Source of the DNA: Amoebophrya sp. A120
Taxonomy: Eukaryota > Protista > Dinoflagellata
Direction: 5' to 3'
Assembly: GCA_905178155.1 (NCBI GenBank)
Contig: CAJINV010000001.1
Span: 729,643-793,642 of the forward strand
DNA: 64,000 nt
In this document: one piece after another, positions 22,353 through 63,600 of the stretch
How positions within the stretch are numbered: position 1 is the stretch's first letter
How the letters are laid out: every line of letters starts with the position of its first letter
The notes under the pieces: model-generated
Database searches by the model: none
What the model was told of the DNA's origin: nothing
The model's input: only the letters and a program-made list of their open reading frames with translations
Translations under genes and position numbers: made by a program

Positions 22353-24462
22353 CTATCCATCCCATTTGAATGTTTGTCTATCCTGTACAAATTTCCCGGA
22401 TTTGGGCAAGTATTCTGTGTTTTCCATTGCAAATATGTCGAGGCCTCGAAAATGCAAATGCTTATGTTCGTCGCTTCAAAAGGAGCGAATCAATTTCAAC
22501 ATGAAACACCTGCGCATGCCTAGCAGAGCGTATCGAGTTATTTGAGAACTCCCGCTTCTCCATGACAGCAGACCGTGTCGCGCATTGATGTCATGTATCG
22601 CGCCAGCTTTTGGTAGTTGTGCTCGTGCTTTCAACGAACATCAACAAGCAAAATCAAAGCGAAACTTCGTTCTAGAAGGCCCAGACAGATTTGCAACGCA
22701 TACACATTTTCCAGCGCCAACCAGGTTGGGGTATCCGCGCCCTCTTCGGCTGATCGTGGAGCTCGGTCGCCGGCCATGTCTATCCTGTGCAAAAATATCG
22801 CACTCGTATTTTTGCAATCATGCATTACAAAAAATCCTTTTGCTAAAGTAACTCCGCATTAGAAATTTTATTTCTTAATGCATTTATACGAGTACGATAC
22901 TTTTGCAGTTCATAATGTCCGTCCGACACCAACCGGGGCAACACGGGTACACCAATACATTTTGATCCGGTATTATGCGAGGAAAATAGACTTAGATACT
23001 AGCGCAGACAAAGGATTGATATTTGTCTAGGACAGGTTATTATTGGCGACGCCAAAGCAAAATTTACTTATCATGCAGACGGTGGCCCGGGCGCGGGCCC
23101 GAGGATCTATCGATCATGACGGCGCGACTTGCCGTGTAGAAGTGCTGGTCGGTCGTTGTAAACAGCCCAACATGTTGCCGGATGTGATAGCATTTTTGTG
23201 CTAGATTAGTAGATTTGTCTTGATGGCAGCAGCAGACGCAGAAGCCACGGCTTCGAAATTTGCAATAGCAGCTGCTGCAGAGGATGTTCTTGATCATGCT
23301 TTATATATTTTGCGACATGTTTTTCTGCACCCGCACCCGTGTACTAGTTTATTTCCTCTTGCATAGCCAAATCCCGGGCCAGGAGTCGCGTGAAAGCGAT
23401 TTCTGCCGCTTTAGAAACCGCGTAGGTCTGCCGCGGCCAGCCGAACTGCGCGTAGGTGTCCTCCCGCACCTTGGCGATAAATTCGGTCGTCAGCGCCAAA
23501 ATATCCTCCTTGGATTGGCAGGCGAGCCACCTCTGTTTCAGCTGGGCACTGTACCGGTTTTTCAGCAGTCCCGCCATGCTGCACACGTTCACGATCCGCC
23601 GGGGTGGGTCTTGGTGCGGGCGATAGGTGGCGCCGTCCAAGAGCAGGGGAAGAAAGGCCTCCGTGACCAGCATAGTGCCCTCGAAGTTCGTGCCGATGGT
23701 CCGAGCTGCGACTTCCACGCTGAATGCGTCCCCTTTGAACGCCATACCCGCATTGTTCACCAGCACGTGTAGCGGTGGACCAATTTTCTGCGCCGCGCTG
23801 GTCATAGTTGCGGGGGCGGTTAGGTCGAGCTGGACGAACTTCAGCGAAACGCAGGACGAAGCAGGGCCTCCATTTTTACCTGTGAGAGTAGAAAACCAGA
23901 CCGTTTGAAAATGGTAAACGTCGTTCTAACTATCGCGGATAGATCCCCCTGCTGCGTGCGGTCAGATGAAACTTCTACAATATAATTTCTATATACCCGC
24001 TCCAGAGCTCGCTTGAAGCTCTGCTTCCACGTCTCGTCGCGCCTTTTCTCCGAGCTCGACGTTGCGGCAACCCAGAAAAATTTCCGCGGGCTGCTATTAC
24101 AATGAATAGTGCCCCCACCCCAGAACTTGGCAGCATCTGTATTGCAAACTTTTCCAATAGATACACTCCCCGCTTTGCATATATCAGCATCACAAATTTT
24201 CCATGCTGAATAGCTCAAATCTGTGTTGCAAAGGAGCCCGAAAGTAGCCGGATCTGTCATGCAAAAGATACCTTGCGGAGCTAGAAAAAGCTTTCATTTG
24301 GAAACTTTGCATGAGAAACTTTTGCCACTTCCGGGGTGGGGGCATTTTTCATTGTGATAGCTGTCGCGTGCGGGTGAGATGATGTGCCATGAGCCGCACG
24401 ATGTGAAAACCGATGCCTTTGTTGGCACCAGTCACAAGAATGCGCTGCGGCGCAGCCGACAT
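22353..24462 (-). CDS. Short-chain dehydrogenase/reductase, carbonyl reductase-like, 6 exons
   Basis: Motifs LVTGANKGIG, LVNNAG, YAVSK (YxxxK), CCPGWCRTDMAG, SAEEGADTPTWLAL, SGKFVQDR. Four introners plus GT-AG intron 23880-23996. Confidence 0.9.
22421..22702. mobile_element. Introner, family A, strongly decayed
   Basis: Ends tttccattgcaaatatgtc / ccagacagatttgcaacgcata; TSD decayed; element+5 nt restores ALENV-EYLPKSGKF. Confidence 0.72.
22781..22914. mobile_element. Introner, family G (TIR TATnnnnTGCAAAAnTATCGnACTCGTAT)
   Basis: Perfect TSD atgtc; removal restores CRTD-M-AGD. Confidence 0.9.
22971..23365. mobile_element. Introner, family F-like, degenerate
   Basis: Ends tattatgcgaggaaaatagac / gtttatttcctcttgcata; element+5 nt restores LARDL-A-QNVLVYPCCPG. 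Confidence 0.7.
24095..24359. mobile_element. Introner, family C (TIR TATCACAATGAAAAATGCCCCCACCCC)
   Basis: TSD gctgc/gctgt; removal restores TRQ-P-AEIFLGCR. Confidence 0.9.
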
Positions 24463-25479
24463 AGTTGTTTGTCGTTGTCCTCTTTATTATATTTATTTGA
24501 AGATAATTTGCAATGAAACCGGAGAGATAGTACTGAAGCTACGAACGTACAAATTCACTTATAAAAAGGCTGAGCAGTAGATTACGTGTAAACGTAATAG
24601 TAATGTCCAGGTCGGACTACAAAAGCTCTTTCTCTTCAATTTCTTAAGAATACTTGGTAAGGTCTGGAATATAGTCTACGACTGAAGAAGGTGGCAATAA
24701 AACTTGGACACTTCGCCTTGAAACCACAGCTGTTGTAGATAAAGCAGGGCGAGCCAGCAACTATCAAGAGACCACTGCATACAGATCATACGAGGGGGAT
24801 TGTTGAGCGGGGTACAACTAAGTACTGTGTGTGCTGTTCTTTTCCATCCGAGCGAGGCACTTTGAGGCGCTGACGAAAAGGAAGATGTGCGGGAGGTGTG
24901 GCATCAGATCACGATTGGCGATTCCAGTCGGTGAGATAAGCCTTACTACAAAAAGTTACCATGATACGACAAAACAACCGACACCGAGCGTGTTTTGGGA
25001 TTTTACGTATGAGTGCGCTTTCCGTCTTTATATTCTCATGTAGATCACCAGCATTAGCGCACGACTCGCGATTCACCTTAAGAAGAACATTAGCAGTGTG
25101 CCCTGGCAAAACTTCTTGGTCGAAAAATTTTTTTCACCCAGCTGAGCGCCACATTTTGATGTCCAAAAAATGCAACGAATCATCGTCCATGGTACTACTC
25201 ACTGCCGCCGAGCCGACCGATAAGGTGCATGCGTGTAGCAGTTCGAATTCATCTTTTTGCGGGCTTTGTCTACTACAGGGGGAGCTGCATCAGATACGAG
25301 CAGCTGGTGAACGTCGCGAAAAATGAAAGGAATCAAAGTCACGAGTCATGGGCAAGAGGAATTCATGGCTTAATCTTAAATGTTTTTATGCCCCGGAAAA
25401 GGCCCTTCTCAGCCGCGCAGTTGGGGACCCACTACCGCCACCTTCGGCCGATATAAACGCGGACGCTACCTGCTCGGGG

Positions 25480-26991
25480 TTATGGAGGGAAAGTGAATGA
25501 CTTCACGACGAAACCTTTCTTTCGAGAGTGCTGGTGTGGGCCGTAGAGAAATTATCCCGGTCACAGCCACGCTGATGAACAATTTGTATGCGAGCGATGT
25601 GGCCTCATACAATGCTAAAGCATCCTGACAAAAGGAAGGCGCATGCCCAGATGCGCATGACAAATTAGATCTTCACTTAGAGCCTGCTACTAAAGTCGTA
25701 CATCACGACCCTGAGGGGAGATAAAAATCACTCCTTTCCCTGCCATAGTCCTGCATCAGGTAGAATTCGGTGGTGTTTTTGGCGATGAGCGCCCGCAGTG
25801 CGTTGACGCCGAAGCAGAACTGCAGCACTAAAAACAGGCCAAGATCCACGTACAGCAGGGCCTTCTCCAGGGGTAGCATGCACCGCGGGTGGCACTTGGA
25901 GTTCGGCCCGACTTCGGGGAGAAGGTCGGGGCTGAGGAGGAGAAAAATCTCCAGAATCATGCCCGGAAAGACGGTGAGAATCAGGAAAAGAAACAGGTGC
26001 GGGACGTTCTCCGAGAGGTTGCCGCGGTACCCCAGGTAGTAGCGAAACGGCTCCAGAAAGAAGACGAAGGCGGTATGCAGGAAAAAAACTGTGTTAGTGT
26101 AGAGTAGGTGTCTATGTCTTGGCTTGACGGCATGACAAATCTGTCTGGCATGACAGCAAAAACTTGCCATGCGCAGGCAGTACGTGAAAACATGTATGAA
26201 ACTAGCCTATGACGCATGTCTAGCATGAGAAGTGCATACTGTGCAGAACTTTCCGTAGTTGTAGGGACTTACAGCAATACACACTTTTTTTGTTCTTGCA
26301 TAGGCAACAGTCAGAATGTACAGGGTGATGGCCAGCGGCACGTCGCTTATCCACCGCGCCTTGTACCACCCGGCAAGAATAAGGCAGACCGCGAAAAGCA
26401 CCTTGTACCAAAATCCGAAGAACAACAGCAACTGCAGGTGCAACGACGTCGAAATCTCGCGGTGGTAGATGTCATCCTGGGTCTATCAAGCGTCAGAAAT
26501 AGCGTCGTTCCCACGAGAACCCCAGAGACAAGAGGGAAAAAATGAGGACACTGCTAGTACAACACAAGTGAGGAGCTTACTTTTCTTGGCTGTTGCCCAT
26601 GACAAAGTTGGCGGTGCAATAGCAGATGTGAAATAACAGTAGTCGTGCTTAGGCAGCGGCGCGGTCGCAAACAAATAGGATTAGGCCAATTCATCTGTAT
26701 CCTGATTGCGATTGGAGCATGCCAAAATTCCGAAATAAAGTTATAGGAAAACAACTGCGCAGCTTCAGACAGCTGCAGGGTCATCTGCGGATGCAAACTT
26801 GCACGAGGGGAACATCAAATCTCTGCTGGGGAGGACGCTTTTTTTACCGAGGATAGCGTTGACCTCTTCTGCTTCGTGTTCGGCTGCGCTGCAGTAGTCT
26901 CGCCTGGCTTTTTCACCACCGTCTTCGGAGCCGAGGAGGTCGCGGCATTGGCTGAAGGACCCGCATTATTCTCTGTGCCGGAGACCGACAT
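25480..26991 (-). CDS. TMEM17/TMEM216-family ciliary transition-zone membrane protein, 4 exons
   Basis: Motifs STSLHLQLLLFF and EPFRYYLGYRGNLSENVPHLFLFLILTVFP; four hydrophobic segments; three introners. Confidence 0.75.
25553..25723. mobile_element. Introner, singleton family I
   Basis: TAT...ATA with weak TIR, TSD gaaat/aaaat, internal gcatgacaaa; removal extends the frame to TAA at 25480. Confidence 0.6.
26074..26302. mobile_element. Introner, family F (TIR TATGCAAGAAAAAAA.TG)
   Basis: TSD ggcgg/ggcaa; removal restores LTVA-FVFFLEP. Confidence 0.85.
26484..26855. mobile_element. Introner, family D variant
   Basis: Ends tatcaagcgtcagaaatagcgtc / ggacgctttttttaccgaggata; TSD gggtc/gcgtt; frame restored ST-Q-DDIY. 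Confidence 0.75.
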
Positions 26992-27413
26992 TATACTTTC
27001 ACGTACTCTTTCACTCAAAACTTCTTCTACTGTGCAGCTGCAGATTTTATTCTAGATATATCTGTTCACTTGCACAGACCACAACACGACTTCTGTCCTC
27101 CCTGGACCGGTGTTGTTGCACTCTCGTCGTGTAAGGCAAAGTCGACCGAATATACCTTTTGTGCGACTACTTAGCGCGCGAGTCGTTCTCTGAGATCTTT
27201 TTGTTTCTTCCATGGAAGGGACCAACAATCATAATATCGGAACAAAAAATAAAGGGGCAGTGTCGGGGCCGCAAGCGGCAATGGAGGTTTCACCGACCAC
27301 GCCGGTTTTATGTTTGAATGAAAGAAAGTTGAAATTTCGCCTCATTGGTGGATGTACTTGATACTACAGCGAGCATCAGCTTTGTCTTGATTCGAGTTCT
27401 TCGACACACTTTC

Positions 27414-29333
27414 CTACAAATCGTCGCTGTCATTCATCGGGTCGTCGTCTTCCTCCTCGTGTGACCTCTTTCTCACCTTTCGCGCAACAACTCCCGTGTG
27501 CCCTCGCTTTTTGAACGATGTGGTCTTGTTGGTAGTGGTGCTGCCCGCTGTCCCTGAAGAAGCCGCCGCGGGTTTGGGTTTGATTCCCAGTCTACTTGTT
27601 CCAGAATTATCGGAGTCGACGTTCATTGCGTCAGCATCCTCGTCCTCATCGTCCTCCTCGTTTAGAACAAGGGATGTCGCTACTAGTGGTTTTGATGTTT
27701 TCACAGCAGGAGCTGGTGCGGAACTACTCCCCTCGTCGACCTCCATGCTAGTAGTACAACTGACGGCTGTATTTGCAGCAGTTACTCCGCCACTTCTTAT
27801 CTGCTTACTTTCCTTCTCCTTATCCTTTCCCACACCGCGTCGAATATTAAACGTCGGTTTGGCACCGGCCATGACCTCGGAAGTCGCCCTGGCCTGCTCG
27901 CCCGCCAAAGCGTGTTCGTTGGAGAGGCGCGCGAGCAAATTTTGCGCCGCCAGCCGGTTCTCCGCACTGGTCGACAGCGAGGTTCCGGCCAGCGTGTCGG
28001 GGCGCCACTTTTTCCGGAGTTGCTCCGCGTGCTCCTCTGAGACGTGATCGTGCTGGAACTTGCACGTATTGCCGTAGGTGCAGTGCCCGAACTTCGTGTA
28101 GTTCACGCACTTTTTTCCATCGTCTGTTCTACTTGACATGACCTCAGGATGGAGGTCTGACACTCCTCCAGCACTCGTTTTGTCAGCGCTGATTTTCATT
28201 TGACTATCAAAATTTTCCTGCACACGTTTTTCCAAATCTGCAAGCGAACTGGAGGAGATAGTCACCTTTTGCAACTCCGACTCCTTCACCGGATCTTTTG
28301 TGTTGCACAACTCCAGATCATTGTCGCCACGTTGGTCGTCCCCACGCAGCCCGCTTCTGTTGTCTTTATGCCCCTCATCGGAGGAACCGGGGGCGGACGA
28401 ATCATCGGACAAGAGCGAGTCCCTGTCGCTGTTGCTGCTGTTATTGGCCGCGTCATCCGTCATGCGCATCATGGCACTCACCTGCCGGATCATCGTGCGC
28501 TGTTCGGGGGAGATACCGGGGTCGTTTGCCGCGGTAGAGTTGATGTCGTCGTAGTAAAACTGATCGTTCGCGTTGCTGGGCTGTCTTGCGGGATTCACAG
28601 TAAGGAGGCTATTACTTTGGAGGCTCTGGTTCATGCTGTGATTTGCAGTGCGCTTATTAGTGTTGCTTGAGGATGAGGCCGGCGCGGGGGGAAGATCTGT
28701 AATTGCGGTTGCTGCAGAAGGAGGAGCTCCATTGGTTGTAGTAGGTCTACCACCTCCCAAAGTCCAAGCGGCCGTCATTTGCTGTGATGAACCGGCGCGA
28801 GAAGTAGAAGTATTACTCGGTACTACATGTTGCTGACCTTGGTTTTGTTGCAACAGGCCCGCGGCGCGAAGAAAGAAATTTTGGTCGCTGGTCATGTTTG
28901 TCCCCATAATCGTGTTTCTACCGCCGGACGACCCGGTCGTGACACCGGCAGTTCTTGCACCTCCTGCACCGCCCATCGATGATGATGATACCACACCCGA
29001 ACTGCTGCTGGCCGTGCTTCGTGCGCTGGTGGACGCAGAAGATGCGGAAGATGCTCCTCCTCCTGCCTGGAAAGGTCTGCGCATAGCCACGCCGTCCACC
29101 TGCCAGTCCCGCTCGAGTTCGTTCAGCATCTGCTCCGTGCTGCAGCCAAACAGCTCCTTACTCGCGCGGTCCTCCACCTTTTCGTCTAGGGTCACCCCGT
29201 CCAGTTTGTCCTTTCGCGCGACCACGGGGAGCTCCTGGTGTTCCTTGGAAGCCGTGGAAATCGTGCCCGTCCCCACATTGGCGAACACCGCATCGGCCTT
29301 TTCCTGCAGCCGGGACTCCGTGAAACGAAACAT
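27414..29333 (-). CDS. CCCH zinc-finger protein, low complexity, 639 aa
   Basis: C-x8-C-x5-C-x3-H motif CVNYTKFGHCTYGNTCKFQH in a single long ORF. Confidence 0.8.
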   Translation of the reverse strand: MFRFTESRLQEKADAVFANVGTGTISTASKEHQELPVVARKDKLDGVTLDEKVEDRASKELFGCSTEQMLNELERDWQVDGVAMRRPFQAGGGASSASSASTSARSTASSSSGVVSSSSMGGAGGARTAGVTTGSSGGRNTIMGTNMTSDQNFFLRAAGLLQQNQGQQHVVPSNTSTSRAGSSQQMTAAWTLGGGRPTTTNGAPPSAATAITDLPPAPASSSSNTNKRTANHSMNQSLQSNSLLTVNPARQPSNANDQFYYDDINSTAANDPGISPEQRTMIRQVSAMMRMTDDAANNSSNSDRDSLLSDDSSAPGSSDEGHKDNRSGLRGDDQRGDNDLELCNTKDPVKESELQKVTISSSSLADLEKRVQENFDSQMKISADKTSAGGVSDLHPEVMSSRTDDGKKCVNYTKFGHCTYGNTCKFQHDHVSEEHAEQLRKKWRPDTLAGTSLSTSAENRLAAQNLLARLSNEHALAGEQARATSEVMAGAKPTFNIRRGVGKDKEKESKQIRSGGVTAANTAVSCTTSMEVDEGSSSAPAPAVKTSKPLVATSLVLNEEDDEDEDADAMNVDSDNSGTSRLGIKPKPAAASSGTAGSTTTNKTTSFKKRGHTGVVARKVRKRSHEEEDDDPMNDSDDL

Positions 29334-30253: not shown

Positions 30254-32340
30254 CTACCCCGTCCCACCACCTGCTTGCTCAGCCTCCACCCCGTCCGGCG
30301 GTCCTGCTATTTCTGCGGCACCCCCGGCTTGTGTACTAGTCATGGGTTCCTCCTCGGTATAGACCGGGCCCCAGCTGGGGTCGGTTTTCGGACCACGGTA
30401 GCTGTCGCCGTCCACGGAGGAGAGGTCGGAGACCTCCTGGATCTCGCTCCCCTTCGGCGGGTATACATTGCAAATATGTCATCTGGGTCTGGAAAAGTGG
30501 AGCTTGTGTTGCATGTCTAGCACTCCTGAAAATAAATGTGTATTGCATAGCCAGCAAAGGCGTTGCTTGTTGTCATGCAGAGACGCGTAGTTTGCGTTTG
30601 GCTTTGTCATGCGTGCTAGTACGCATCAGACGGCGTCAAATGAATCGGTCATGCTTGGCTGCAGTTGAAAGCACCAAACTCATCAACACTTTAGCATCAC
30701 AGGTTTCCTTCCAATCCCAGAAAACATATTTGCATGGCATAGCGGGTGCACGAGCGTTCGCGGGTTGGACTCGGCGGACCGCGTGAAGCCCGGACTGTTC
30801 TTGGCCTCGGTGTCTGCCGTGTCGACGTAGTCCTCCGGGTCCAGCGCATCGCGACCGGTCACGTAATTCAACGGCTCCCACCGCCGCTCCAGGAACGAGT
30901 ACTTTTTGCGGTCCTGCTGGAAAGTCAGCCGCCCGATGCCGACCAGGTTCAGTGCCATATCAACTGCAAAAGTGTCTGGGTCTGGAAGAATGCCAGACTT
31001 GTCATGCAGGTTCTCCATGACCCGTGAGGTTTGGTATGTAGAACATAGCATGACAGATTCCGTGAGAGTTCTATCATGCCTATCCTGCATGAGAAACTGC
31101 CTCTCGATTAGGTCAACAGCGGACAGCTTTTGGTAAGGATGCAACACAGATTTTTACATGATTGAGATTTAGCATGACAAGTTGCTTTGTTCCAGACCCA
31201 GACATATTTGCATTGGATACGCCAGGGTGTGACGTGACCGCAGAATTTCGCACAGACGGTCCTATGGAAGCGTCAGGTTTGAAATCGTCAAAGTTTAAAT
31301 AGTTTGTAATGCATAAAATGCATGACCCGCGGCACGTGTGTTGCAGAGCAGGCAAGTGAGGCCGATTGTAAGCCTGTTTGGGGTTACAGCTCGAGCTGCT
31401 AAAGTAGCATGAGAACATCGCTCTTCTTTGCCTAAACAGCATGACAGAGTGGATTTAGGGGCCGCCGAAACTTGTCATGCACCACTTGGAAACTGGGTTC
31501 CAACTGGAATCCATTTTATGCATGACAAATTATTTCAACTTTGTCGATTTCAACTCTGACACATCCATAGGTCCACGGTCTCGTTCACGAGAGAGAGGAC
31601 CAAATCCTGTACAGTTATTGTTTCTGTCGCCTAAAAGGTTTTCGTTTTTGTTTTTCGACCACGAGTCGGTTTATTAAGGGTCGTGGTCCGGCATGAACCA
31701 ACCTGCCATGGAATTCAATGTCGTGATGACTCATATTATCCTATCACCCAATATTAAAAATGATACCACATCCTCGCCCTTTGCGAATCCCCTGGCAAAC
31801 GGCGGGTTTTTTTCTTCCTTGACGAAGCTTTTTGCCTTCACGATTTTCTTATCAAGTGCAAAAATGTCTGGGTCTGGAAGATTGCCAGGTTTGTCATGCA
31901 TATCCTGCATGACCCATGATGCCTGTAGTGCATGACTTGGCATCACAGACTTTTGGAAGGCTCCCCGATGCCTATTCCGCATGACAAATGCCCTCTCCGC
32001 GTAGCACAATCTGGGCTCCTGTTGCTGGTCATGCAATACAGATTTTCTTAGAATCCCAAGACAGCATGACAAGTTTGGATCCTTCCAGACCCAGACATAT
32101 TTGCAATGCATATTTCTCCGGCACGCATCTCTTCTCCAGTCCGGATCGCTCGAGCACGTGCTGCGCGAGTTGAAACACCACCGGTCCACTCAGCGTCTCC
32201 CGCCCGAGCAGGCCCAGGGAGGCAAATTTCAGGCAGAAGGGTTTTTTGCGCTCCATCGTCCGCGCCACCGCGTGGCAGTACATCTCCCAGGCGTCCTGAC
32301 GCTGCTGCGTCTCGAACAGCGCAACGATGTCGAGGAGCAT
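30254..32340 (-). CDS. Hypothetical protein, 6 exons (5' end uncertain)
   Basis: One continuous frame after removing four introners and GT-AG intron 31607-31766; stop TAG at 30254-30256. Confidence 0.72.
30462..30741. mobile_element. Introner, family A variant
   Basis: Perfect TSD gcggg; frame restored. Confidence 0.88.
30958..31219. mobile_element. Introner, family A
   Basis: TSD tgcca/cgcca; frame restored. Confidence 0.9.
31263..31569. mobile_element. Introner, family H (~60-bp TIR TATGGA.G.GTCAG..TTGAAATCG.CAAAGTT.AAATA.TTTGT.ATGCATAAAATG)
   Basis: Perfect TSD ggtcc; frame restored ETVD-R-LCE. Confidence 0.9.
31850..32112. mobile_element. Introner, family A
   Basis: Perfect TSD tttct; full-length similarity to 61612-61873 and, inverted, to 43149-43412. 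Confidence 0.93.
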
Positions 32341-33829: not shown

Positions 33830-36800
33830 TTACTCAATCCCGATGGCTTGGTTGATGTGTCTCAAGACGAACGCGGAGAAACACGTACCAAGCAAAATGC
33901 CGATCAGCAGTGCGTTGCTCAGTAACGGTCCGATTTGCGCCCGTTCCGCGGGGTGCTTGATGCCGCTACCCGCCTCCATGAACGCCCACGTAGCACAGTA
34001 GGCGAGGGAGAGACCGAAGAGGTAGTCAACCAGAAACGGTACTGCCATGTTGGTTTCGTAGATGCACACCAAGAAACAGCACGTGGTGACGAATACGCAC
34101 CGGAGCCCAACGATCGGAAGAAACCATTTTTTCGGCGGCTTGCCCAGCATCGGGAGGTACCGTCCGGACACGTCGCCCAGATTGAAGAAACCCAGGACGA
34201 GCTGGTGGTTTTTGAAATTTTGGTATTTATTTTGTCATGCGATTCGTTCAAGAAGAAAAACCACCAGCAAGGAAATCCATGCCACTTCGTGGTACAGAAA
34301 CATGAAGAAGTTGATGAGGTAAGTTGTACAACTTTATCCTATGTCATTAAAACGCTTTGTCTAAAAAATATTATACCAGGATGAAGTTCGACATGCAGAT
34401 CCTTTTGTCGTTCGGGTCATTCGCGTCGTCCGGCTTGATCCCTTCCGCCTTGAAGAGCAGAGGCAACGTATTACAATGAAAAATGCCCCCTCCCCATATT
34501 GAATTGAAGGAGCGACGCCCCCTGACGTGCCTCGGTAGCCGATCGCTCTACCAACCGGAGGTGCTAATTTACATGCTTACTCCTTCATTCGTCGAGCACC
34601 TCATTCGCCATACAAACCGGCTGGTGAGCAATTACCCGGACTGCCGGCCCAATTTGTGCCGGTTTTGGTGTTTCAGGGAGATACCCTCCCCATATCGAAA
34701 CGCAAATCTGTGATGCACATTTGTGATCACAAATCAGCTTTGTGATGCTAGAAGGCAAAAGATGCGGACTGTAGTGCTGTCTAGCGTGGGAAACCCTTGC
34801 TGCTCCAGCATGACAGGAGGCAGCTGCAAGTGGGAAACAGCATGACAGATTGCCCGCAACTCAGGCCGCAGCTGCGTCTCTTGGCCTTCTAGCATTACAA
34901 CACGACTTGTGTACTCAAATACAGCATCACAAATTTCGTTTCCTATATGGGGTGGGGGCTTTTTTCACTTTGATACAACGCCGGAAAGATGCAGAAGGTG
35001 GTGAAAAACGCCAAAAACATGCCCGTGTACATTGGCCAGTCGTCCGCGATATGGATTGCAAATATGCCTGGGTCTGGAAACTTGTGATGCGACTTTATGA
35101 CTGGTGGGCGTACGGCAATGCGCAGCTACGCATGACAAGTTTTTAGGCTCCTATGTGTTTCGCTTTCTGCATGGCACACTGCATTTTTGCATGACAGGCA
35201 ATACGCTTCTTTCCTGCTCCTGCAATACAGATTTAAGGAGCATGTGAGACAAGCATGACAAACTTGCATTCTTCCAGACTCAGACATATTTGCATTTGAT
35301 ACGCGAATACGGCCCAAATGCTTCGGGGCTGGATAGCGGAGTAATCTTCTTCTGCTTCGTCCTGTTTATTTCTTGTTCCTGCTGTCACAAGCGGTTCCAG
35401 CTCGTCGTTATTATCATGACCAGCTTGTTCTTCTGATGTTTCAACCAGTCTTCTCTCTGCGAGCACAATCTTCGGCTTGGCTGTTTCTACATCGTGATCT
35501 ACTGCGTCTTTCTCCAGCTGGTTGAGCAAACTTCCCTCTTCCGGGTTCAAATCCTCCAGTTCGATTTGCTTTGCCAACAACGGATTTCGGACGAACGCAA
35601 AGGGCAGCATCAGGTAGCAGAAAACGAGGACGATCGCCACGATGGAGAGCAGGATGTAGACGAGATTCGCCGTGTAGCCCTGGTTTCCCAACGCGACGTT
35701 GTAGATCAAATTGAAGAAGAAAGTTGGGAGGGAAGACAACGCGTTTCCGAGGGACCAGAAGGTCATCATGCGCGGGGAATTCAGACTCGTGCAGAGACCT
35801 AGTTTGGTATTTGGGTGAGAGAAGTGTTATGCTCAACACGCAGAAATGTTGCACTTGCAAAATAAAGTTTACTTCTAAAAATACAGAGCTCGCAGGAGCC
35901 CACGACGAAACTGCACCCGTAGATAGTAGACTACACTATTTATACATAGGAGGAGGAGGAGGAAACCTCTATAGTAAGCTTCTATCTACTAAGCTACTTC
36001 TTTCTTAAGCTTAACTATAGGACATATTTTTGGTGCCGACAAGCCGAGCGGATAGTAGATCTGTAAAAGTGGAAACATAGTAAGTACATCTACATCAAAA
36101 TGAAAAACTTCTGCGTTTCAGAAGTACCACTTCCGCAGTTTTGCAGCCAGGAGTTTCCGATCCCGAGCACCACGAGCGCAATTAAAGCCACGATATGACA
36201 GTGCACAACCCCCCCTCTTCCTCATTTGTATAGCATGAACGGCAATACAAGCATCAGCAAGAGTGCCGGTTTTGCATGACAAATTTGCCCTAGAGTGTAG
36301 TGCTATTTGGGATGCCAGAACTTGTCATGCAAGCAGTGCCACAAGGCTGTGACTGGAGTTGAGTAGGAGTTGGGGTTTTGCATGACAAATGAGGGGGAGG
36401 GGGAGTTGTGCACTCTCGTACACGGCTCGGGAATTGTAGAGGACGGCGAAGACAAACAATGGCACGTACACGAGGACGGAGGAGCCGCAAGCGATGAGCC
36501 ATCGGATGGAAAAGGTGAAGCCGGCGAAAAATTTGCTCCGCGTCCAGGTCGTGGTGTTTGCATTTATTCCCTTCTCCACGTCGTTATTTTCGGGTTGCTG
36601 TTCTTTCACCTGCTGAAACTTTCTCTTCTCCGACACGTACGTGTAAGCAAAGCCAAACACCACGTTGCTGACGCCGTACGGGAACAGCGAGATGTAGCCC
36701 CAGTCCTTTCCGAGCACCTGAAGATAGTTGTGAGCAGTATTTGGTAGATTCGCAATGTCATTGGCTAAGTACTTATTTTGCCTTCTAGCTGCATCATCTC

Positions 36801-41026: not shown

Positions 41027-41303
41027 TCTGACCCAGAACCGTTGTAAAAAAGTAGAATATCGTCGAGCACCAGTTGTGATTTGAATAGAAACGTAGAAAA
41101 CTGAAAAACAAAACGAAATGAAATATGAAAATCAGAGTGCAAAGTGCAGCTCGACGCACTAGCTAAGGCAAATCAAAAGTAAAACGTAAACGGGTAAAAA
41201 TGAAAATCATGAAAATACGACAGGTAAAAATAAAGGCAGTACTCAGATTCACGCACTCGTCCGTATACTATTCCGATGTGTATTATCGAAGTTTTTCAAC
41301 TTC

Positions 41304-42783: not shown

Positions 42784-45457
42784 TCACGCTTTCGCGTAGT
42801 ACCTCCAAAATGACCGCCAAGATGAGCTGCCACCCTTTTTCCTGGCTAAAGTGTCTCCGTCCTCTCTCTCACCAGAAGATGCGCTGTTTCTCGTCTCTTG
42901 AGCTCCTGACCGCGCAAAGCGATCCCCCGGAGGAAGTCCCTCGTCAAAATCTTCCTGATACCGGCCGTCCGGACCATAGTCGTATGGTGGGTAGGACCGG
43001 TAATTATTTATATTTTCGAAACTGTCGTCCCCACCATGAGCAGCTGCAGGTCCTTCGTGAAAATTGTCAGCAGAACCACTACTGGGCACTCTTCTCCTAA
43101 TCGGCAATTTCCAGCCCCCGAGCAAGCGGATGAAGGTGGCGCACTCGCTATCAAATGCAAAAATGTCTGGGTCTGCAAGAATGCAACTTGTGATGCTGCA
43201 TCTCGATGTCTAAAAAATTTCTGTGTTGCATGAGTAGCAAAAGGATTCTAATTTTTGCTACGCGGAGAGGGCATTTGTCATGCGGAATAGGCATCGCGAA
43301 TCCCTCAAAAGCCCTGTGATGCCAGGGCATGCATCACAGACATCATGGCTCATGCAAACCGTGCATGACAAGTCTCAGAATCTTCCAGACCCAGACATTT
43401 TTGCATTTGATACTCGCTGCTTCCGCGGTACAGTGCTTCGATGTCCTTGTAGAGGTGGAAGGCGTTTCGTTTGTTCTTGCCGAGAATCGCCACTTCTGTC
43501 GCGACATTGCCGTATTCCTGCCCGAAGTGGGCCAGTTTGTCAAAGTCTCGCTTGCTTTCCGCTTTCGCGAAGATCTTCTGGAGGTTCAGTTTGTGCAGCG
43601 CCGGCGCGCGTTCCTCTAACACGGGTCGGGGCGGCGGAAGCCGGGTCAGCTCGTAGTTGCTCAGGATTGTCTCCTTGTTCTCAAACAGCAAGGTGCGGAG
43701 ACGTAAGGGAACTTCGTCCTTCTTGCCCGTGCTCTTTTTCGCGAGAGGTATAGATTTCGATTTCGAATCAATATCGTTTAATGCTCCGCGTTTTGTTCCC
43801 GACGAGGAAGATGTTTTTGCAGTACTGCTAGCTATTTTCGGTGGTTTTATCGCCTGCCTGTCCAAAATCTCCGCGAGAGTCTCGTAAGGCTTTACGTTTT
43901 GGAAGAGTTGCCGGAATTTGTGCGGCCCGAAGCCCTTCGCGCCGGCGGTAATGCAGTCCGAGCTGTTATCCAAGGAAAAAAGTGCTACAGTTACACATTT
44001 GTAGTGAATTCAGCATCACAAATTTGCCTTTTAATGCAGAGATTATAAAGCAAAAGCAAAACACACACGAAACGAGACCCGCAAGCATTTTGCGCATGAC
44101 AGAAGTCGTCTGTCATGCATGTTTTGCAACACAATGTGTAACTGTAACACTTTTTTCTTGCGATAGCTGTCGCCCGAAATCGCCAGCATTTCCGCGATGC
44201 GGTCTGCCGGGAGACCGAGGTATAAGAGTGCACAACTCCCCCTCGTCCCCCATTTGTAGGGCATGAACAACAATACAAGCGCCGGCACGAGTGCAGGTTT
44301 TGCATGACAAATTCACTCCGGATTGTAGTGCTGTTTGGGCTGCCAGAACCTGTCATGCAAAAAGTGAGGCAAAGGGTGCATTTTTTTGGTCTATTTTGCA
44401 TGACAAATGAGGGGAAGCAGGGGCGGTTGTGCACAACTATCATACGAACTTGTGCTCCACCAGAATCTCGTCGATGGGGTCGAACGTGAAGGGATCCACG
44501 ATATCAATCCCGTAGGGCAGGTATGCATGGCAAATATGTCTGGGTCTGGAAACTGAGACATGGAACTTGTAATGCTTGCTAGTCCTACACTCCTGTAAAA
44601 TCTGTTTTGCCTGACTAACAAAGAAGACGTTCTCTGTGGTCATAAAAAAGCGCAGTTTCTCATGCGGACTGAGCATGAGAGAGCGTTCAGCGAACTTGTC
44701 ATGCTGGGCTGCATTGGCAAATATTTCAGTCATCCACAGTTCAGCATCACAAGTTTCCAGACCCAGACATATTTGCATGTGATAGCAGGAGTTGAAAGAG
44801 GTCTTTGTCGGTGGAAAACACGACGGTTTGGTTCTTCGTTGGAACAAGGAGCTGTTGTTGTACTTCTGCATTGATTTTGCCGCTAGAAGTAGAATTGGCC
44901 GCGTCTAGTGAAGAGGTAGACCCGGCGGATGAGGCTGTTGAGGAAGAAGATGTTGAACACGGAGGTGCACCAAGTTGTTGTTGATCACCGGTTCCTTCAC
45001 TTATCTCTACGTGTTCCACTCCTACTCCCTGGTTCCGGCACTGCCACTCGTGCTCCACGGCCAACTTGGCCAAAACGTCGTCGCCCTCCAACCCGTTTTC
45101 TGCCACCACGAGCGGAATCCCGCTGTAGGGGAGAAAATTCCTCCGCACCAAGTTCAGGTTCGCGACGAAAATTTCCCGCTCGCGCTCGTCCTTCCAGGAG
45201 ACCCGCTTTTTGTACTCCTTCAGATGCTCCTTGCGCCAGCTGTTGGACTCCCCGGAAAGCGAATCCAGCACCAGCAGCGGCTTCGCCCGCACCGTGTCCG
45301 CGATCAGCCGGATCGCCCACAGCTTCCTGCACAAATTCTCGGTGAAGTGCTGACCTTTACCGGCCGCGCAGAACCGGCGGGCAACCAGGGTACCGTCGAT
45401 CAGCCACAAGGGGCCGGTGGCCGTCGCGGCCAGGGCCGCCGCGCTGGGAGGTGACAT
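42784..45457 (-). CDS. Stand-alone 5'-3' exonuclease / flap endonuclease (PolI 5'-nuclease-like PIN + H3TH), 5 exons
   Basis: Motifs LIDG, LVLDS, WRKEHLKEYK, LEGDDVLAKLA, STDKDLFQL, LAISGDSSDCITAGAKGFGPHK; four introners. Confidence 0.85.
43149..43412. mobile_element. Introner, family A
   Basis: Perfect TSD ctcgc; frame restored. Confidence 0.92.
43967..44165. mobile_element. Introner, family F
   Basis: ~33-bp TIR (...aaaaaagtg.tacagttacacatt), perfect TSD gctgt; restores the H3TH motif GDS-SD. Confidence 0.93.
44221..44444. mobile_element. Introner, family B
   Basis: TSD cgagg/cgaac; restores EHKF-G-LPAD. Confidence 0.88.
44522..44784. mobile_element. Introner, family A
   Basis: Perfect TSD gcagg; restores FQLL-P-YGID. 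Confidence 0.92.
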
Positions 45458-46508: not shown

Positions 46509-47858
46509 TCATGCCCGCTGCACCACAGATCCGTTGGCGGTGCGCACGTAGTAGCTGTCTCCCGCCCCGACCCCCGGTTGCTGGGACATGGTCAACGACG
46601 CATTTTGAGAACCTCCTGATCTGCTTCTTTGCGAGGCGGAGGAAGAGCGCTTCGATTTCGTGCTTGTAAGCATTTTCTCCTCGTCGTCCAGCTCCTCCTC
46701 CTTGAAATCGTACATGGGCCATTCGCAACAGAAAATCCGTTTCAACACCAGCGGGAAGCATTTCCCTCCAGGAAAGGGGACCAGCATAAAGGAACTCTGT
46801 CTGTACTCCTTATAGTCGTCCACCAAGTTTGGGTTCGTGTAGTACCGCTTCAAATTCTTCCCCTCGCAGGTCGGCAAACCGGACACGCACATGAGCAAGA
46901 CGCAGGTGAGGCAGGGTGATAACCCCGCGATGATCATGTAGACTAAAAACCACTTCTGGAACATCCCGCCCGGGAAGGACTGCTCGAAGCCGCGCACCAG
47001 CGGCCACGTGAACGCCCACGCGGAGAACCACATGAGGATTTCGCCGAAGTAGTTCGGGTGGCGGCTCCACGCCCAGGGCCCGATCTTGCAGATCCCGCCA
47101 GGGCGTCCGTTCGCGACCCATTTCGCCTTGATGATGTCAGAGCTTATTTGTAAAAGTAAGCCGATAGAAAACGTCGCCGCGAACACGTAGTCGTACCACC
47201 GGAATTCCGTGCGGAACTGCGCCCCAAGGACGACCAGCAACGTATGCAAGTACATAACTCCCCATCCCCCTCATTTGAATGGCATTCACAGCAACACAAA
47301 CAACGGCAGAAATGTGGCTTCCGTATGACAAATCTCTAATATACGGATTGATGTAGTACTGTTTGAGGTTGTTCCAAAATCTGTCATGCAGAGAGAGCTT
47401 AAAGGCAAGACGTGTATTCGGTATGATGCATGACAAATGAGGGGGAGCAGGAGTTGTGCACTCCCATACAGCGGCATGGAGATCGCGAACACCCAGAAGG
47501 CCTGCATCATCCAGGTGATCAGGAATTTACAGAAGGACTTTTTGATCTCCTCGAACCGGCTGTCCCCGTCGCGCAGGCGGACGCGGTAGCAAAGGAACAG
47601 CAGCAGCCACATGCGGCTCAATGCGAAAAGCGTGGTCATCGTGATCTTCCGGGGGTCATCATTGTTCGCCTGCGATTGGAAGTACGCGAGCGGAATCATG
47701 GCGAGGAAATTCAAGCCGCCGATCGTGTCAAACAGCGCCTCCGTTTGGAGCACGTACCCGTGAATGAACCCGAGCAGCTGCGTGCCGCCGCACAAAGCCG
47801 CGCCCGTCCATAGTAATTGGTTCACGCACAGCACCGAGGGGTTGGCGAGTTGGGCCAT
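46509..47858 (-). CDS. DUF1295 / steroid 5-alpha-reductase-like membrane protein, 2 exons
   Basis: Motifs RDGDSRFEEIK, WMMQAFWVFAISMP, GPWAWSRHPNYFGEILMW; one introner. Confidence 0.88.
47243..47468. mobile_element. Introner, family B
   Basis: TSD caacg/cagcg; restores SMPL-LVVLG. Confidence 0.88.
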
Positions 47859-49573: not shown

Positions 49574-49829
49574 TTATTTTATATTTTACCCCTGACGCTG
49601 ACAGGTTTTGGTTTGATTTATTGTACATCAGCATGCGCTCTTCTACTACCTAGGAACAGCACATCTCGAAAGCGTGACCTAGCCGCAGACACAGTTCATC
49701 TGCGAGCTCTCTCGCACCAACTTTATCCGGCCCTCCACCCGAAAGGAACACAAAGACGAGAATCAATGTCGGTGCCAACACCAGCCAAAGCGATGCCCCA
49801 CTTACAATACAAGCAACAACGCCAGTGAG

Positions 49830-56289: not shown

Positions 56290-57938
56290 TTATGTCGCTA
56301 TTACAGTAGACAGCATTTCCCGCAGGAGCATGATTTTATGCTGCACGATGGCATGACAAGTATCAATTTCCCCAGGTAGAAGCTTAGTCGGTTCATTTGT
56401 TTTGTTTTCTGGCTTATCCACTACTTCTGCACTACCTACTCGCCCTGCAACCCCAAGAAAGAGCAGACAGTTGTGAATTTTCTCTATCGCACTTTCATAT
56501 ACCACGGAAAACTCGCGCACGTGCTCCGCGATCAACCGCAACACGTCGCCCAGCAGCTCCAAGTAGCCGGCGCCAAGAATTTCCTCTCCGGCCCCCGTTC
56601 TTTCGATATCGGCCTTCGTTCTGCTCGTGTTCCCACCTCCTCCTCTTGCCTTTGCGACGAAATGCGGAAATTCTTCCGTTTCGAACGTTCTCAGGGCCTT
56701 CAGAGCTTTCCGCACAATCCACTGTCTGACCTCGCTCACGCCGCTGCGGCCGCTGGACTGCTGCATCAGCTTCTGCCGGAGTTCCTTCTGGGTAGCGCTC
56801 GTGTAGGGCACCGCCTGCAGGTCTTTCTGCTCTCTCCTGGATTTTGCATGTTTCTCGGGATTGGTTCTAGCCTCTTCGTCCGTTCGTCGCTGCAGCGCCG
56901 CCAGTCGACTGGCGAGGTTTGCAAGCCGGCGTTGTTTTGGAAGGACTGAAGTGGTATCTTGGTCGAGTTGTTCTTGTCCGCTTGGGTTCTTGTGGAGATG
57001 AACGTCTTTCGAGCTAGACTTCGAAGTAGACGGCTTCCTTTTATTTTCCACGACCGCGGGGTTATTTTTCGGTGCAGAACTACCTCCAGACGTCTCGTTC
57101 GCTGCTCTCATTTCCAGCTTTTGCTTCTTCAACTGTGGCTCTGAAGCTGCTGCGGCGCTCATGTTTGAAAGTAGAGCTGCTCCCCGATGAGTAAGATCTT
57201 GTTGTGCGACCGGCTGCATATAATGCGCCTTACCTGCTCGGGCGGTCGCCGAATTGTTCTTTTGTGAATTATTGGATGCAGCAGCAGCAGCAGCAGCGAG
57301 CTCTACTGCAGCTTGTTGCTCTCGTTTCAGCTTATCCAGTTCCTTCGCGATGGTCTCGAGTTCCCGTCCGCTATCAAAGAAAAAAACCGGATTAGTGTGG
57401 GCAGCTGTCGTCGGGTTACAGCATGACAAATTTGCTCTGCATGACAAAGAAATCCTGTCATGCAAAGCCACCTAGTACGTGAAAACACACACGAAATAGG
57501 ACTTCACGCCTTGCTAGCATGACAATTGTAAGTGTGTTCCATGCTTGTTTGCATTACAGACTTACACTCACACAGTTTTTTTCTTGCATATCCGCCTCGC
57601 CGGCTCCAGTACTGCGCATTCCCGGGGGCGTCGTCCGGTGGCTGGTCGCAGTGGCACCCGCGCAGGTCCGCACAATACACCTCATCGATAGTTTGCACCG
57701 CGTCGTAGCTCCGCGCGGTTAGCAAGCGCCACTTGTCACACTTGTCGCAGCACACCCAGTAATCGTGGACGACAACTTGATCAGGGCTTTGCTGTGCGGT
57801 CTGCTCGTCCACTGCTAAGGGTATGTGAGCAGCCAGCGGGGGCGGTGGTGGGGAACCCTGGACGGCGACCGACGGCGGACTAGAGAGCAGTAGATGTGGC
57901 GTCGCGCCGCCCGGCGCGTGGTGGGGGTTAAGGGCCAT
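56290..57938 (-). CDS. CW-type zinc-finger protein (3' end may extend to ~55.6-55.8 kb)
   Basis: zf-CW signature WVCCDKCDKWRLL...YCADLRGCHCDQP; one introner joins ORFs 57504-57986 and 56290-57471. Confidence 0.75.
57372..57590. mobile_element. Introner, family F
   Basis: Perfect TSD tccgc; restores RRGG-RELE. Confidence 0.9.
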
Positions 57939-60691: not shown

Positions 60692-63600
60692 TTATAGTAC
60701 CGGTTGTCCCCCCTGCCCTGGCGGCGGTTGGTGGTGCTGACCCTGCGGAGGTGCGTGTCCCGCTGGCGCACTTCCTGCTGCCGGCGGTGGCGCTTGCCCA
60801 GCCGGTGGCGGCTGTGTGTGATACTGGTATGATTCCCCAAAGCCCGCTCCGTAATTTGGTTCCTGCGCGACCGGAGGTGGTTGTTGCGCGTGCTGCTGCG
60901 GCGGCGGCGCCTGTGCGTAATGCTGCGGCTGCTGGTGCTGGTGGTGCTGCGGGGCGTGCTGCGGCGGTGGCGCATGTTGGTGTGCTCCCGCGGGCGGCGG
61001 CGCATGTTGATGGTGTTGTTGTGCGGGTGGAGCACCGGCATGTTGCGGTGGAGCACCGGCATGCTGCGGTGGCGGAGCGGCGTGGTACTGGTACTGCACC
61101 GGCGGCGGCTGGCCGCCGGGTGGCGGCGCCGCGGGGGCCGCGTAGTGGTACTGCGGTGGGGGGGCATTGGGATCGTGGGCATACTGCGGTGGGGGCGCCG
61201 CATACTGGGGTGGCGCTGGCGGGGGCGCGGCCGCATACTGCGCGTTCGGGTCGGCATAGTACACCACCTGGGGCTGGGCGTACTGCGGCTGCGCTGCGTA
61301 CTGCGGTTGTTGTGCGTAATACCCAGCATGCGGGTCCACATAGGCCGGCGGGGCCTGTTTTTTTTTTTGCGACGGTCACAGTACTGATAGCTACTGCTAC
61401 ATTAACATTGTTCGTCAACATTCACATCAACAGCCCAGTTGTAGTTCAAAAAGTAGACCACACGCCTGCTTCTACGCAGGAACACAGCTACTTTTTACCA
61501 AAACACCAGTCAGGGAACCATATTATAGTATAAAAAAATTATGTGCTTACGCTATAGTTCACGCCCGGTGGTGGTGCCGCCACTACCGGCATCGGCGCGA
61601 CCGGCGGTGCTTATCAAATGTAAAAATGTCTGGGTCTGGAAGATTGCCAGGTTTGTCATGCACATTTTGCATGACTCCTGATGTCTGTGATGCATGCCCT
61701 AGCATCACAAATTTTGTGAGGGCTTCCTGATGCCTATACCGCATGACAAATGCTCTTTCCGTGTAGCAAAACTTGGACTCTCTTTGCTGCTCATGCAATA
61801 CAGATTTTTTTAGAATCCAAAATCAGGATGACAAGTTGGATTCTTCTAGACCCAGACATTTTTACATTTGATAATGCCAATCCTCGCTCAATGGCGTGTC
61901 TTCCCAGTGCGCGCATGACCATCTCCTGCCTTTTTGCCTCGTCCATCGGTGCCTTATGACCATGAAAAATGCACCCACCCCAAAAGTTGTGATGCGAGGT
62001 TTCCAAATGAAAACCTTTTGTCATGCATCAAAGGAATATGAATCTTTGTGATGCAGAGTCTGGGCGTATATAGCATTGCTTGCATGACAAGCGTCGCTCT
62101 TGCTGGGATCTTTTGCAATACAAATTTCTGCTATTCACGATCGGAAATCTGTGACGCTGATAGATGCAAGAGGGCGAATGTTTCATTTGGAAAGGTTTGC
62201 AATACAAATGCTCCCAAATTCGGGGGTGGGGGCATTTTTCATTGTGATATGCCTTATGACTGGTTTCCGCGGTTTTTAGCAGTAGGTTGGACCCGCGGAG
62301 ATAGACCGTGTTGTCTTTCTGTTATAACATGTTCGGATGGTGGGTCGGATGGTTTGATTCAGAAAAAATGCACAGATAGATGAGGGAAGTTTCAGTTTTG
62401 AGGTTTCTTCGTGAAAAAAAAATAACCGAGGATCACAAATGGAAATGTAGTAAGTACCCATGACACCACTTTGCAGTAAGAAAATCAGCAACATATTGGC
62501 ATGGCAGCGTGGTCTTCAATTACTAGAACTAGTTGTTGATCATGATCATTCCATTACCTCCAAGAATATTCTGATTGCTGCTTCTCTTGACGCATAGTGG
62601 ATGAATGCGAAGCCTCGACTTTTCTGCTTTCCCCCCTTTCCATCGCCCTTCAGCTGGTGTCCCGCCCGCTCCACTAAGAGTACCATCCCTGAGTTGGTTT
62701 CGTTTTTCTTTTTGTGTCCCAAAATTGAAATGGAAATAAGTCATGTGCGACATAATTGTCAGGCTGTGTCTGTGTGCATAGCATCGTTTATAATATCCTC
62801 CAGCAAAACTCATTCCAATCTTCATGTTTAAAAAGTACTTACCCCATTGCGAGAAGAATTTTCCCAATTCGTCCTCCGTGTGCCATTCCTGCACGTAGCC
62901 AACGAAAATTTTCGCCGGATCGGGCGACCGCAAGAAGGGATAGAGCTCCTCTTCGGTTTTCAGCTTGTCCTTCACGTCTTTCTCACTCTGATACCGGAGC
63001 GTCAGGTATGACAGGGCACAACTCCCCCTCCCACTCATTTGTATTGCATGAACAGCAATACAAACGCCAGCGACCCTGGAGCCTGTGCATGACAAATTTG
63101 TGTGCCTACTGTAGTACTGTTTGGGCTTTCGAAATTTGTCATGCAAACAGTGCCACAGGGCAGCGACTGGATTTGGGATTTTGCATGACAAGAAATGAGA
63201 GGGAGGGGGAGTGGTGCACTGTCATATCAGGTGCTGCGGCGGTTCCAGTCCGGGGAAATTGTGTCCGTCTAAGAAATATGGATTGCAAAAATGTCTGGGT
63301 CTGGAAGAATTCATGTTTGTCATGCTTGTCTGGCATGGCTCTTAAATCTGTCATGCACCTTACCCAAGAACCCCATTTTTCTGTCATGCAGAAACGCTGT
63401 TTGTCATGCAGAATAGGCAACACCTAGGAGCTCAGAAACTTGTCATGCTGAGCCAGCATTTGTAGCCTCATCATGAGACGCCACCCAGCATCACAAGTTT
63501 CCAGACCCAGACATTTTTACAATCCATAAGAAAGCGGCGTCCGCGTCTGCCGCTTGCTTGTAGGTGATGAAAGCGAAGGGAAACTTTCCCTCCTTCCGGC

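What the first reader, a model, noticed from the sequence alone, without database searches (positions are those of the whole stretch)
24095..63528. The same introner sits in both orientations relative to transcription, implying strand-symmetric removal
Seen, in three independent pairs with all hosts on the - strand: 43149-43412 is the reverse complement of 31850-32112 and 61612-61873 (interior gcatgacaaatgccctctccgcgtagc vs gctacgcggagagggcatttgtcatgc); 63277-63528 is the reverse of 35050-35301; 61955-62249 is the reverse of 24095-24359. In addition, 11310-11566 (host +) has the same genomic orientation as 35050 (host -). Established: spliceosomal introns need directional signals (donor, branch point, acceptor). 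Inference: the excision signal must be carried by the symmetric parts, namely the TIR hairpin with UAU/AUA ends and motifs present on both strands. This recalls structure-defined splicing such as euglenid non-conventional introns or endonuclease/ligase splicing.
Basis: partly seen in the sequence, partly recalled or inferred. Interest (0 to 1): 0.85.

Follow-up and report, generated by a model that had tools for sequence, protein, structure and literature searches.

The report
Two-way transposon introns of Amoebophrya
Small transposons in genes of the marine parasite Amoebophrya are cut cleanly out of the transcripts whichever way round they sit and without normal splice signals, likely by a relaxed spliceosome that reads their mirror-image ends at an inferred fixed spacing.

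Summary
The window matches Amoebophrya sp. A120 and holds 32 TAT...ATA elements with 5-bp duplications, the published A120 introners. One family sits both ways relative to transcription: 4 versus 6 in the window, 58 versus 74 with related loci, 0 of 3206 pairwise calls inconsistent. Interiors are not palindromic. Both orientations are removed: contigs of four probable RNA runs (one sample) skip element+5 nt at 11 of 12 elements laid, 3 versus 3 in that family. Only 15 of 209 could be read GT-AG. Mismatched duplications fix the cut at N+TAT...ATA+NNNN if one register holds for all. That puts TA at +2/+3, as in 10 of 11 canonical donors here. The inference to nuclease/ligase splicing is not forced: two-way introners are known and spliceosomal in Polarella and Aureococcus, and I found no sign of selection on RNA pairing. 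A mirrored branch-point idea failed its tests. Best reading: divergent spliceosome guided by mirrored ends (0.5); nuclease/ligase (0.3). The elements are known; unbiased orientation and the register were not found in print.

The parts
43149..43412 (-). TGGGTC-family element, orientation Y, perfect 5-bp duplication, in a 5'-3' exonuclease-like gene; inferred intron 43145-43413
   Evidence: skip of 269 nt in 4 of 4 runs (also record 5); host Pfam PF02739 E 1.5e-6, below curated cut-off
31850..32112 (-). same family, orientation X
   Evidence: skip of 268 nt in 4 of 4 runs; canonical CT..AC intron in the same contigs
61612..61873 (-). same family, orientation X; duplication mismatched at positions 1 and 5
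   Evidence: removed (267 nt) in P0129; allows cut no later than duplication base 4
30958..31219 (-). same family, orientation X; mismatch at position 5
   Evidence: skip of 267 nt in 4 of 4 runs keeps the downstream base 5
35050..35301 (-). same family, orientation X, in nucleoside-transporter-like gene (label recalled, no Pfam hit)
   Evidence: skip of 257 nt in 4 of 4 runs; site empty in tandem paralogue
63277..63528 (-). same family, orientation Y, in RRM gene
   Evidence: removed (257 nt) in P0129; Pfam RRM_1
30462..30741 (-). same family, orientation Y
   Evidence: skip of 285 nt in 4 of 4 runs
44522..44784 (-). same family, orientation Y
   Evidence: skip of 268 nt in 4 of 4 runs
11310..11566 (+). 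same family, orientation Y, in MAP-kinase-like gene; mismatch at position 4
   Evidence: P0121 keeps Arg of TLRE, shared by 4 of 4 aligned proteins; needs cut at or after base 4
11631..11898 (+). same family, orientation Y
   Evidence: removed (273 nt) in P0121
24095..24359 (-). second family, one orientation, in short-chain dehydrogenase gene
   Evidence: removal restores the frame; Pfam adh_short; no RNA joint listed
61955..62249 (-). second family, opposite orientation to 24095
   Evidence: removed (300 nt) in P0129
31263..31569 (-). TAT...ATA element, other family
   Evidence: skip of 312 nt
34469..34975 (-). TAT...ATA element, 507 nt
   Evidence: skip of 512 nt; empty in paralogue
36194..36420 (-). 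third family; mismatch at position 1
   Evidence: skip of 232 nt keeps upstream base 1; empty in paralogue, same Ala
43967..44165 (-). TAT...ATA element
   Evidence: skip of 204 nt
44221..44444 (-). third family; mismatch at positions 1-2
   Evidence: skip of 229 nt keeps upstream bases 1-2
47243..47468 (-). third-family-like element in DUF1295 gene; mismatch at position 3
   Evidence: removed in P0001; X1 contig piece ends at 47237, read as keeping upstream base 3 (inferred; joint row not listed)
63007..63226 (-). third family
   Evidence: removed (225 nt) in P0129
12752..12961 (+). TAT...ATA element in kinase gene
   Evidence: removed in P0121
13439..13616 (+). TAT...ATA element in kinase gene
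   Evidence: removed in P0121
14324..14602 (+). TAT...ATA element in kinase gene
   Evidence: removed in P0121
14707..14925 (+). TAT...ATA element in kinase gene
   Evidence: removed in P0121
18287..18708 (+). decayed element ending ATC instead of ATA
   Evidence: removed (427 nt) in P0127
18936..19204 (+). decayed element starting TAC; only 1 of 5 duplication bases still match
   Evidence: removed (274 nt) in P0127; needs cut at or after base 4; paralogue P0128 has the same Val
19613..19878 (+). element starting TAC
   Evidence: removed in P0127
19980..20072 (+). 93-nt element; mismatch at position 5
   Evidence: P0127 allows cut no later than base 4
22781..22914 (.). 134-nt element, host strand unresolved
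25481..25747 (-). element in Transmemb_17 gene
   Evidence: frame restored; Pfam
26074..26302 (-). element in Transmemb_17 gene
   Evidence: frame restored
26484..26855 (-). element in Transmemb_17 gene
   Evidence: frame restored
57372..57590 (-). element in zf-CW gene
   Evidence: frame restored; Pfam zf-CW

Best explanation
These are MITE-like transposons of Amoebophrya that sit in coding exons in either orientation between 5-bp duplications and are removed from the transcript together with one duplication, at an inferred single register (one base before TAT, four after ATA), likely by a divergent U2-type spliceosome that has dropped the need for +1 G and the final AG and reads the mirrored end sequence. 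Shown: insertion anatomy, both orientations, exact removal of element+5 nt, no GT/AG in most copies. Inferred: one register for all copies; TA of the end acts as donor +2/+3; the long hairpin or an end-binding protein holds the ends together and sets the 3' cut by distance. Not shown: any lariat, branch point or snRNP involvement.
For: Removal of element+5 nt at 11 of 12 elements laid, in 4 of 4 runs, beside GT-AG introns in the same contigs, and at 15 of 15 elements inside four database proteins. Lower bounds on the cut (36194, 44221, 47243 from contigs; 11310, 18936 from proteins) and upper bounds (30958 from contigs; 19980, 61612 from proteins) meet only at duplication base 4; contigs alone give 3 or 4. 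In that register introns start N-TA-T, and 10 of 11 canonical introns mapped here start G-TA (3 GTAT); the register was derived without using this. The A-tract of one arm is a U-tract in the other arm. Farhat 2021 reports U2, U4, U5, U6 and most spliceosomal proteins in A120 but no U1. Spliceosomal handling of non-GT/AG transposon introns is described for Fritillaria (review).
Against: In this register first and last bases are free (G first in 70 of 204; AG last in 21 versus 17.7 expected; no first-last association, p 0.63), which is more relaxed than in any spliceosomal case I read. No branch point was found: the GCAT[G/C/T]ACA motif is kept equally near the 5' and 3' ends (121 versus 121 of 209), and its post hoc match in canonical introns (4 of 11) did not repeat in 13 predicted introns from other loci (0 of 13). 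The TA match has about a 1 in 6 chance among registers. Both orientations fold into a rod joining the ends (z -8.0 and -6.9; 58 of 60), which could bury a donor and fits a nuclease equally well. RNA support is one sample, and its RNA label is the tool's guess.
Confidence: 0.5

Rival explanations
1. A spliceosome-independent endonuclease and ligase, as proposed for euglenid nonconventional introns, recognises the paired ends, cuts 1 nt 5' and 4 nt 3' of the stem and joins the exons.
For: No base preference at either junction; no 5'/3' asymmetry at any of 68 end positions tested (none p<0.01); no orientation bias (p 0.19; 0.11-0.39 at stricter host calls), whereas Polarella classes are biased; end-joining hairpin in both orientations; U1 not found in A120; euglenid introns also have the stem nearer the 5' end (+4, -6).
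Against: No wobble bias (158 versus 171); arm positions 4, 5, 7, 15 do not covary (10 and 14 do, which shared descent may explain); an element ending ATC and one with a 1-of-5 duplication are still removed in the database protein; bulge-helix-bulge helix absent; a 3-nt stagger is not the 2-nt RNase III stagger (recalled).
Confidence: 0.3
2. An ordinary-type spliceosome uses the mirrored GCAT[G/C/T]ACA motif 40-50 nt inside each end as branch point (a specific form of the best explanation, which would make the mirrored motif the reason for two-way splicing).
For: A forward copy lies within 60 nt of the 3' cut in 127 of 204, peaking at 45-49 nt; the variable middle letter resembles the T-n-A-C branch pattern (recalled); similar words in 4 of 11 canonical introns, 0 antisense.
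Against: Pattern chosen after seeing those introns; 0 of 13 out of sample (noisy predictions); no retention bias to the 3' copy (35 versus 35 discordant); 29 of 204 have no forward copy; about four copies per element in equal numbers on both strands (388 versus 412) look more like transposase binding repeats.
Confidence: 0.12
3. The skips are reverse-transcriptase template switches across a hairpin flanked by direct repeats.
For: Hairpin plus direct repeat is the known setting for this artefact (recalled); only contigs, not reads, were available.
Against: 30 of 32 elements break the frame or hold stops in all frames; removal gives conserved proteins; retained bases fit one register; skips occur at imperfect repeats (44221).
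Confidence: 0.04
4. The elements are removed from DNA, or the RNA-labelled runs are DNA of cells with empty alleles.
For: The runs' RNA label is a guess.
Against: The same contigs skip four GT-AG introns and one has a poly(T) loose end; contigs of run X5 run into or across elements, one unbroken over 24297-30495 through three elements (only 15 of its 307 joints were shown).
Confidence: 0.04

Closest known systems
Amoebophrya A120 introner elements (Farhat et al. 2021, PMC7789003)
   Same: These are those elements: TAT start, seven variable bases, A run, 3-5 nt direct repeats, about 240 nt, hairpin, RNA-supported non-canonical junctions; window proteins are 100% identical to proteins named A120.
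   Different: The text read gives no orientation analysis ('strand' 0 hits, 'lariat' 0, 'branch' unrelated) and calls the border variable or unknown (Fig. 3 legend). Here orientation is unbiased and the register is inferred fixed. Its remark on four repeat bases upstream of the 5' end may foreshadow the register; figures were not visible.
Either-orientation introners of Polarella glacialis (classes 1, 2, 3, 6, 7, 8, 10) and Aureococcus anophagefferens (10.1101/2020.10.14.339549)
   Same: TIR/TSD elements that make introns in both orientations without changing the mRNA.
   Different: Those carry or recruit G(T/C/A) and AG, need a target motif and show orientation bias; here G[TCA]-AG is possible in 29 of 209 in any register, targets have no motif, and no bias was detected.
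Euglenid nonconventional introns (review PMC11282704; PMC12621601)
   Same: Non-canonical junctions, inverted ends that bring the ends together, TSD-like repeats, coexistence with GT-AG introns, stem nearer the 5' end.
   Different: Stem at +4/-6 with CAG/CTG and a pyrimidine/purine junction preference; released as circles. Here stem at +2/-5, TAT/ATA, no junction preference; product unknown.
Fritillaria borealis MITE-derived non-canonical introns (review PMC11282704; PMC13326754)
   Same: MITE origin, TIR and TSD, loss of GT-AG, genome-wide spread.
   Different: They keep preferred ends (AG-AC, AG-AT) and are ascribed to a modified spliceosome; here both terminal bases are free.

Membership tests
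Amoebophrya A120 introner elements | Inverted repeat starting TAT with an A run about seven bases later | tested here: met
   (the finder required such ends, so their conservation is partly by construction)
Amoebophrya A120 introner elements | 3-5 nt direct repeat at the borders | tested here: met
   185 of 234 perfect at 5 nt, at most 24 at any other length 2-9, no repeat filter used
Amoebophrya A120 introner elements | Removed from transcripts, repeated in families, organism A120 | tested here: met
Either-orientation spliceosomal introner (Polarella/Aureococcus type) | Intron made in both orientations | tested here: met
Either-orientation spliceosomal introner (Polarella/Aureococcus type) | G(T/C/A) donor and AG acceptor carried or recruited from the duplication | tested here: not met
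   29 of 209 in any register; 110 of 209 cannot end in AG
U2-type spliceosomal intron | Branch point and lariat | tested here: inconclusive
   candidate motif failed asymmetry and replication tests; lariats cannot be seen in contigs
U2-type spliceosomal intron | Dependence on U2/U5/U6 snRNPs | not testable with these tools
   needs inhibition or crosslinking; U2 alignment in the supplement is a picture
Euglenid nonconventional intron | End-joining RNA stem | tested here: met
   predicted folds; selection on pairing not detected
Euglenid nonconventional intron | CAG/CTG at +4/-6 and pyrimidine/purine junctions | tested here: not met
   TAT/ATA at +2/-5; junction dinucleotides match exon background
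Euglenid nonconventional intron | Released as full-length circle | not testable with these tools
   no usable raw reads
tRNA-type bulge-helix-bulge intron | 4-bp helix between two 3-nt bulges at the cut sites (geometry recalled) | tested here: not met
   7 of 204 with a full helix versus 4.1 in shuffles
MITE (non-autonomous TIR transposon) | Short, non-coding, TIR, TSD, empty site in homologue | tested here: met
   three sites empty in tandem paralogue
MITE (non-autonomous TIR transposon) | Cognate autonomous element and superfamily | not tested
   no genome held; integrase-like ORFs in a TIR-flanked A120 family are reported (PMC12130899)

The most novel reading that the evidence does not exclude
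Amoebophrya A120 has a second, spliceosome-independent mRNA splicing machine that measures its two cuts from the transposon end (1 nt outside on the 5' side, 4 nt on the 3' side, exactly one target duplication), ignores all junction bases, and so makes any insertion of these transposons silent in either orientation: an alveolate counterpart, evolved separately, of euglenid nonconventional splicing.
Probability: 0.3. Interest if true: 0.88.

Novelty: new variant of a known kind. Interest (0 to 1): 0.58.

Why it matters
How most A120 introns are removed without GT-AG or a detectable U1 is an open question in the papers read. A fixed register says where to look: a lariat joined to the base before TAT would mean a spliceosome more relaxed than those described; a circle or cyclic phosphate would mean a second splicing pathway outside Euglenozoa. 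Free orientation and free target sequence also explain how tens of thousands of copies could fill coding exons at little cost, and the register gives a rule for correcting A120 gene models.

Tried and rejected
No genome is held, so no genome-wide count, no U2 or ligase search. In one search the DNA-like run filled the joint table. An early idea that only the middle three duplication bases are kept was dropped: mismatches fall at all five positions (14, 11, 13, 8, 9). A floating cut was disfavoured: 22 of 50 mismatches are synonymous, near the 0.39 expected with one free copy, with non-synonymous ones at every position (frames predicted). Mirrored branch point: proposed, not supported. Heuristic intron finding was noisy. 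Rfam: 0 matches. Shuffled-partner nulls are imperfect where the two strands are the same 4-mer (25-26 full helices there match the rate for chance palindromes). Huff 2016 is not held. Earlier findings: three look-ups returned nothing. Rows dropped: 52 of 234 locus elements had no host call, 2 more lacked flank, window element 22781 was left out, and 18287 and 18936 were found after the 209-element counts; 5 of 209 with 3 or more mismatches were left out.
Full report
Observation. Self-comparison of the window recovers every named pair at the stated place, at 67-83% identity. A scan for TAT...ATA ends with inverted arms, later completed by protein mapping, gives 32 elements covering 8250 bases. 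With the ends trimmed off, related interiors align strongly in one direction only and poorly with their own reverse complement, so orientation is defined. The first two pairs and 11310 fall in one family; 24095/61955 is a second.

Organism and hosts. A host exon is 100% identical to a protein labelled Amoebophrya sp. A120, as are two more. Host strands come from Pfam hits on 7 of 15 exons scanned, from CT..AC canonical introns in RNA-like contigs and from mapping four database proteins. Hosts are + up to 20072 and - from 24095; 22781 is unresolved.

Removal. Four runs guessed to be RNA (one sample) were laid on 30001-50000. All four skip element+5 nt at 11 of the 12 elements there; the twelfth (47243) is not among the 15 of 19 joints listed. 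The same contigs skip four GT-AG introns. In the large family, three copies of each orientation are skipped (30958, 31850, 35050 versus 30462, 43149, 44522). Four database proteins lack element+5 nt at 15 of 15 elements they span, among them 61612, 63277, 61955 and 11310; these gene models may rest on similar RNA data and are not independent of it. So 26 of 32 elements have evidence of removal, five only a restored frame, one none. Contigs of run X5 run into or across the elements, and a tandem paralogue lacks three of them, so they are DNA insertions. Efficiency by orientation could not be measured.

More copies. A motif scan of metagenome contigs gave 167 loci and 234 distinct elements, 185 with a perfect 5-nt repeat and no other repeat length enriched; the best matches to window elements are 88-97% identical. 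A codon model, right on 26 of 26 window elements it called with the gene left out, called 182 of 234 hosts. One family of 132 splits 58 versus 74 (p 0.19) with 0 of 3206 inconsistent edges; five smaller families also go both ways (10:2, 8:3, 4:4, 2:2, 2:1) and two are one-way (3:0, 2:0). Stricter host calls give the same picture. Removal was not checked for these loci.

Where the cut falls. Each mismatch between the two duplication copies shows which copy stays in the mRNA. Contigs keep upstream base 1 (36194), bases 1-2 (44221), base 3 (47243, read from where a piece ends) and downstream base 5 (30958). Proteins keep upstream base 4 (11310, an Arg shared by 4 of 4 aligned kinases; 18936) and downstream base 5 (19980, 61612). 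If one register serves all copies, the intron is N+TAT...ATA+NNNN; this register is allowed at 15 of 15 protein-mapped elements. No single element bounds the cut tightly on both sides, so the single register is an inference; the synonymous share of mismatches fits it (22 of 50).

Signals. GT-AG is possible in any register for 15 of 209 elements, G[TCA]-AG for 29, a final AG for 99. In the inferred register terminal bases follow exon background. But TA falls at +2/+3, as in 10 of 11 canonical donors mapped here. Ends look the same whether they serve as 5' or 3'. Both orientations fold into a rod, yet wobble pairs are not favoured and three positions next to the end pair at chance rate; one arm of the large family was fixed at positions 8-30 by the search motif. 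A mirrored motif 40-50 nt inside each end looked like a branch point but shows no 3' bias and did not replicate.

Mechanism. Inverted ends repeat any directional signal on both strands, so symmetry alone does not choose between machines. I favour a divergent spliceosome reading the end sequence (0.5, plus 0.12 for the form with the mirrored branch point) over a nuclease and ligase (0.3). The case rests on the donor-like register, the reported U2/U4/U5/U6 set without U1 and precedent in other lineages; against it stand the free terminal bases and the missing branch point.

What is known. The elements are those of Farhat et al. 2021 (PMC7789003: abstract, passages, sections 10, 11, 12, 36, supplement passages and part 2 of 5; figures not visible, so Fig. 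3 and Figs S19-S25 may bear on the register). Either-orientation introners are described in 10.1101/2020.10.14.339549 (passages) and allowed for in PMC9860276 (passages). Also seen: PMC12130899 (passages), PMC11282704 (passages and section 6), PMC11453091 (passages), PMC13326754 (listing and passages), PMC12621601 (passages). Nine searches showed no paper on orientation or a fixed register in Amoebophrya; one of them returned only unrelated papers, and subscription journals are not covered.

Verdict. Real, spliced both ways, a known element class. What appears new is the lack of orientation bias without any canonical dinucleotide, and the inferred register that makes the mechanism testable. 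Interest 0.58.

Noticed in passing
window:41304-42103: A 743-nt intergenic insertion between two copies of a 57-nt direct repeat, with an internal duplication and ends resembling TA(C/T)...ATA. One contig of run X5 skips it (41303 to 42047) while the bin has high summed depth: possibly another repeat, polymorphic or collapsed in that assembly.
   Followed up: partly
window:33600-41300: Two tandem paralogues of a membrane transporter-like gene, 46-51% identical; the first has three elements, the second lacks them at those sites.
   Followed up: yes
window:34469-34975: The longest element (507 nt) repeats part of its left end at about 34684, suggesting a nested insertion or internal duplication; still removed whole.
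   Followed up: no
window:60500-63900: One gene (P0129, 511 aa: RRM plus Gln/Pro/His-rich tail) mixes five GT-AG introns and four elements.
   Followed up: partly
window:34202-34376: A canonical GT-AG intron that starts GTAT and carries the element motif about 33 nt before its end; it may be an old element turned canonical, or chance.
   Followed up: no
window:9428-9596: TAT...ATA stretch with a weak inverted repeat but no 5-bp duplication; not counted as an element.
   Followed up: no
window:43403-43412: A few raw RNA reads of run X8 match only the element end and run on into unrelated sequence, so this family occurs in whatever that run holds.
   Followed up: no
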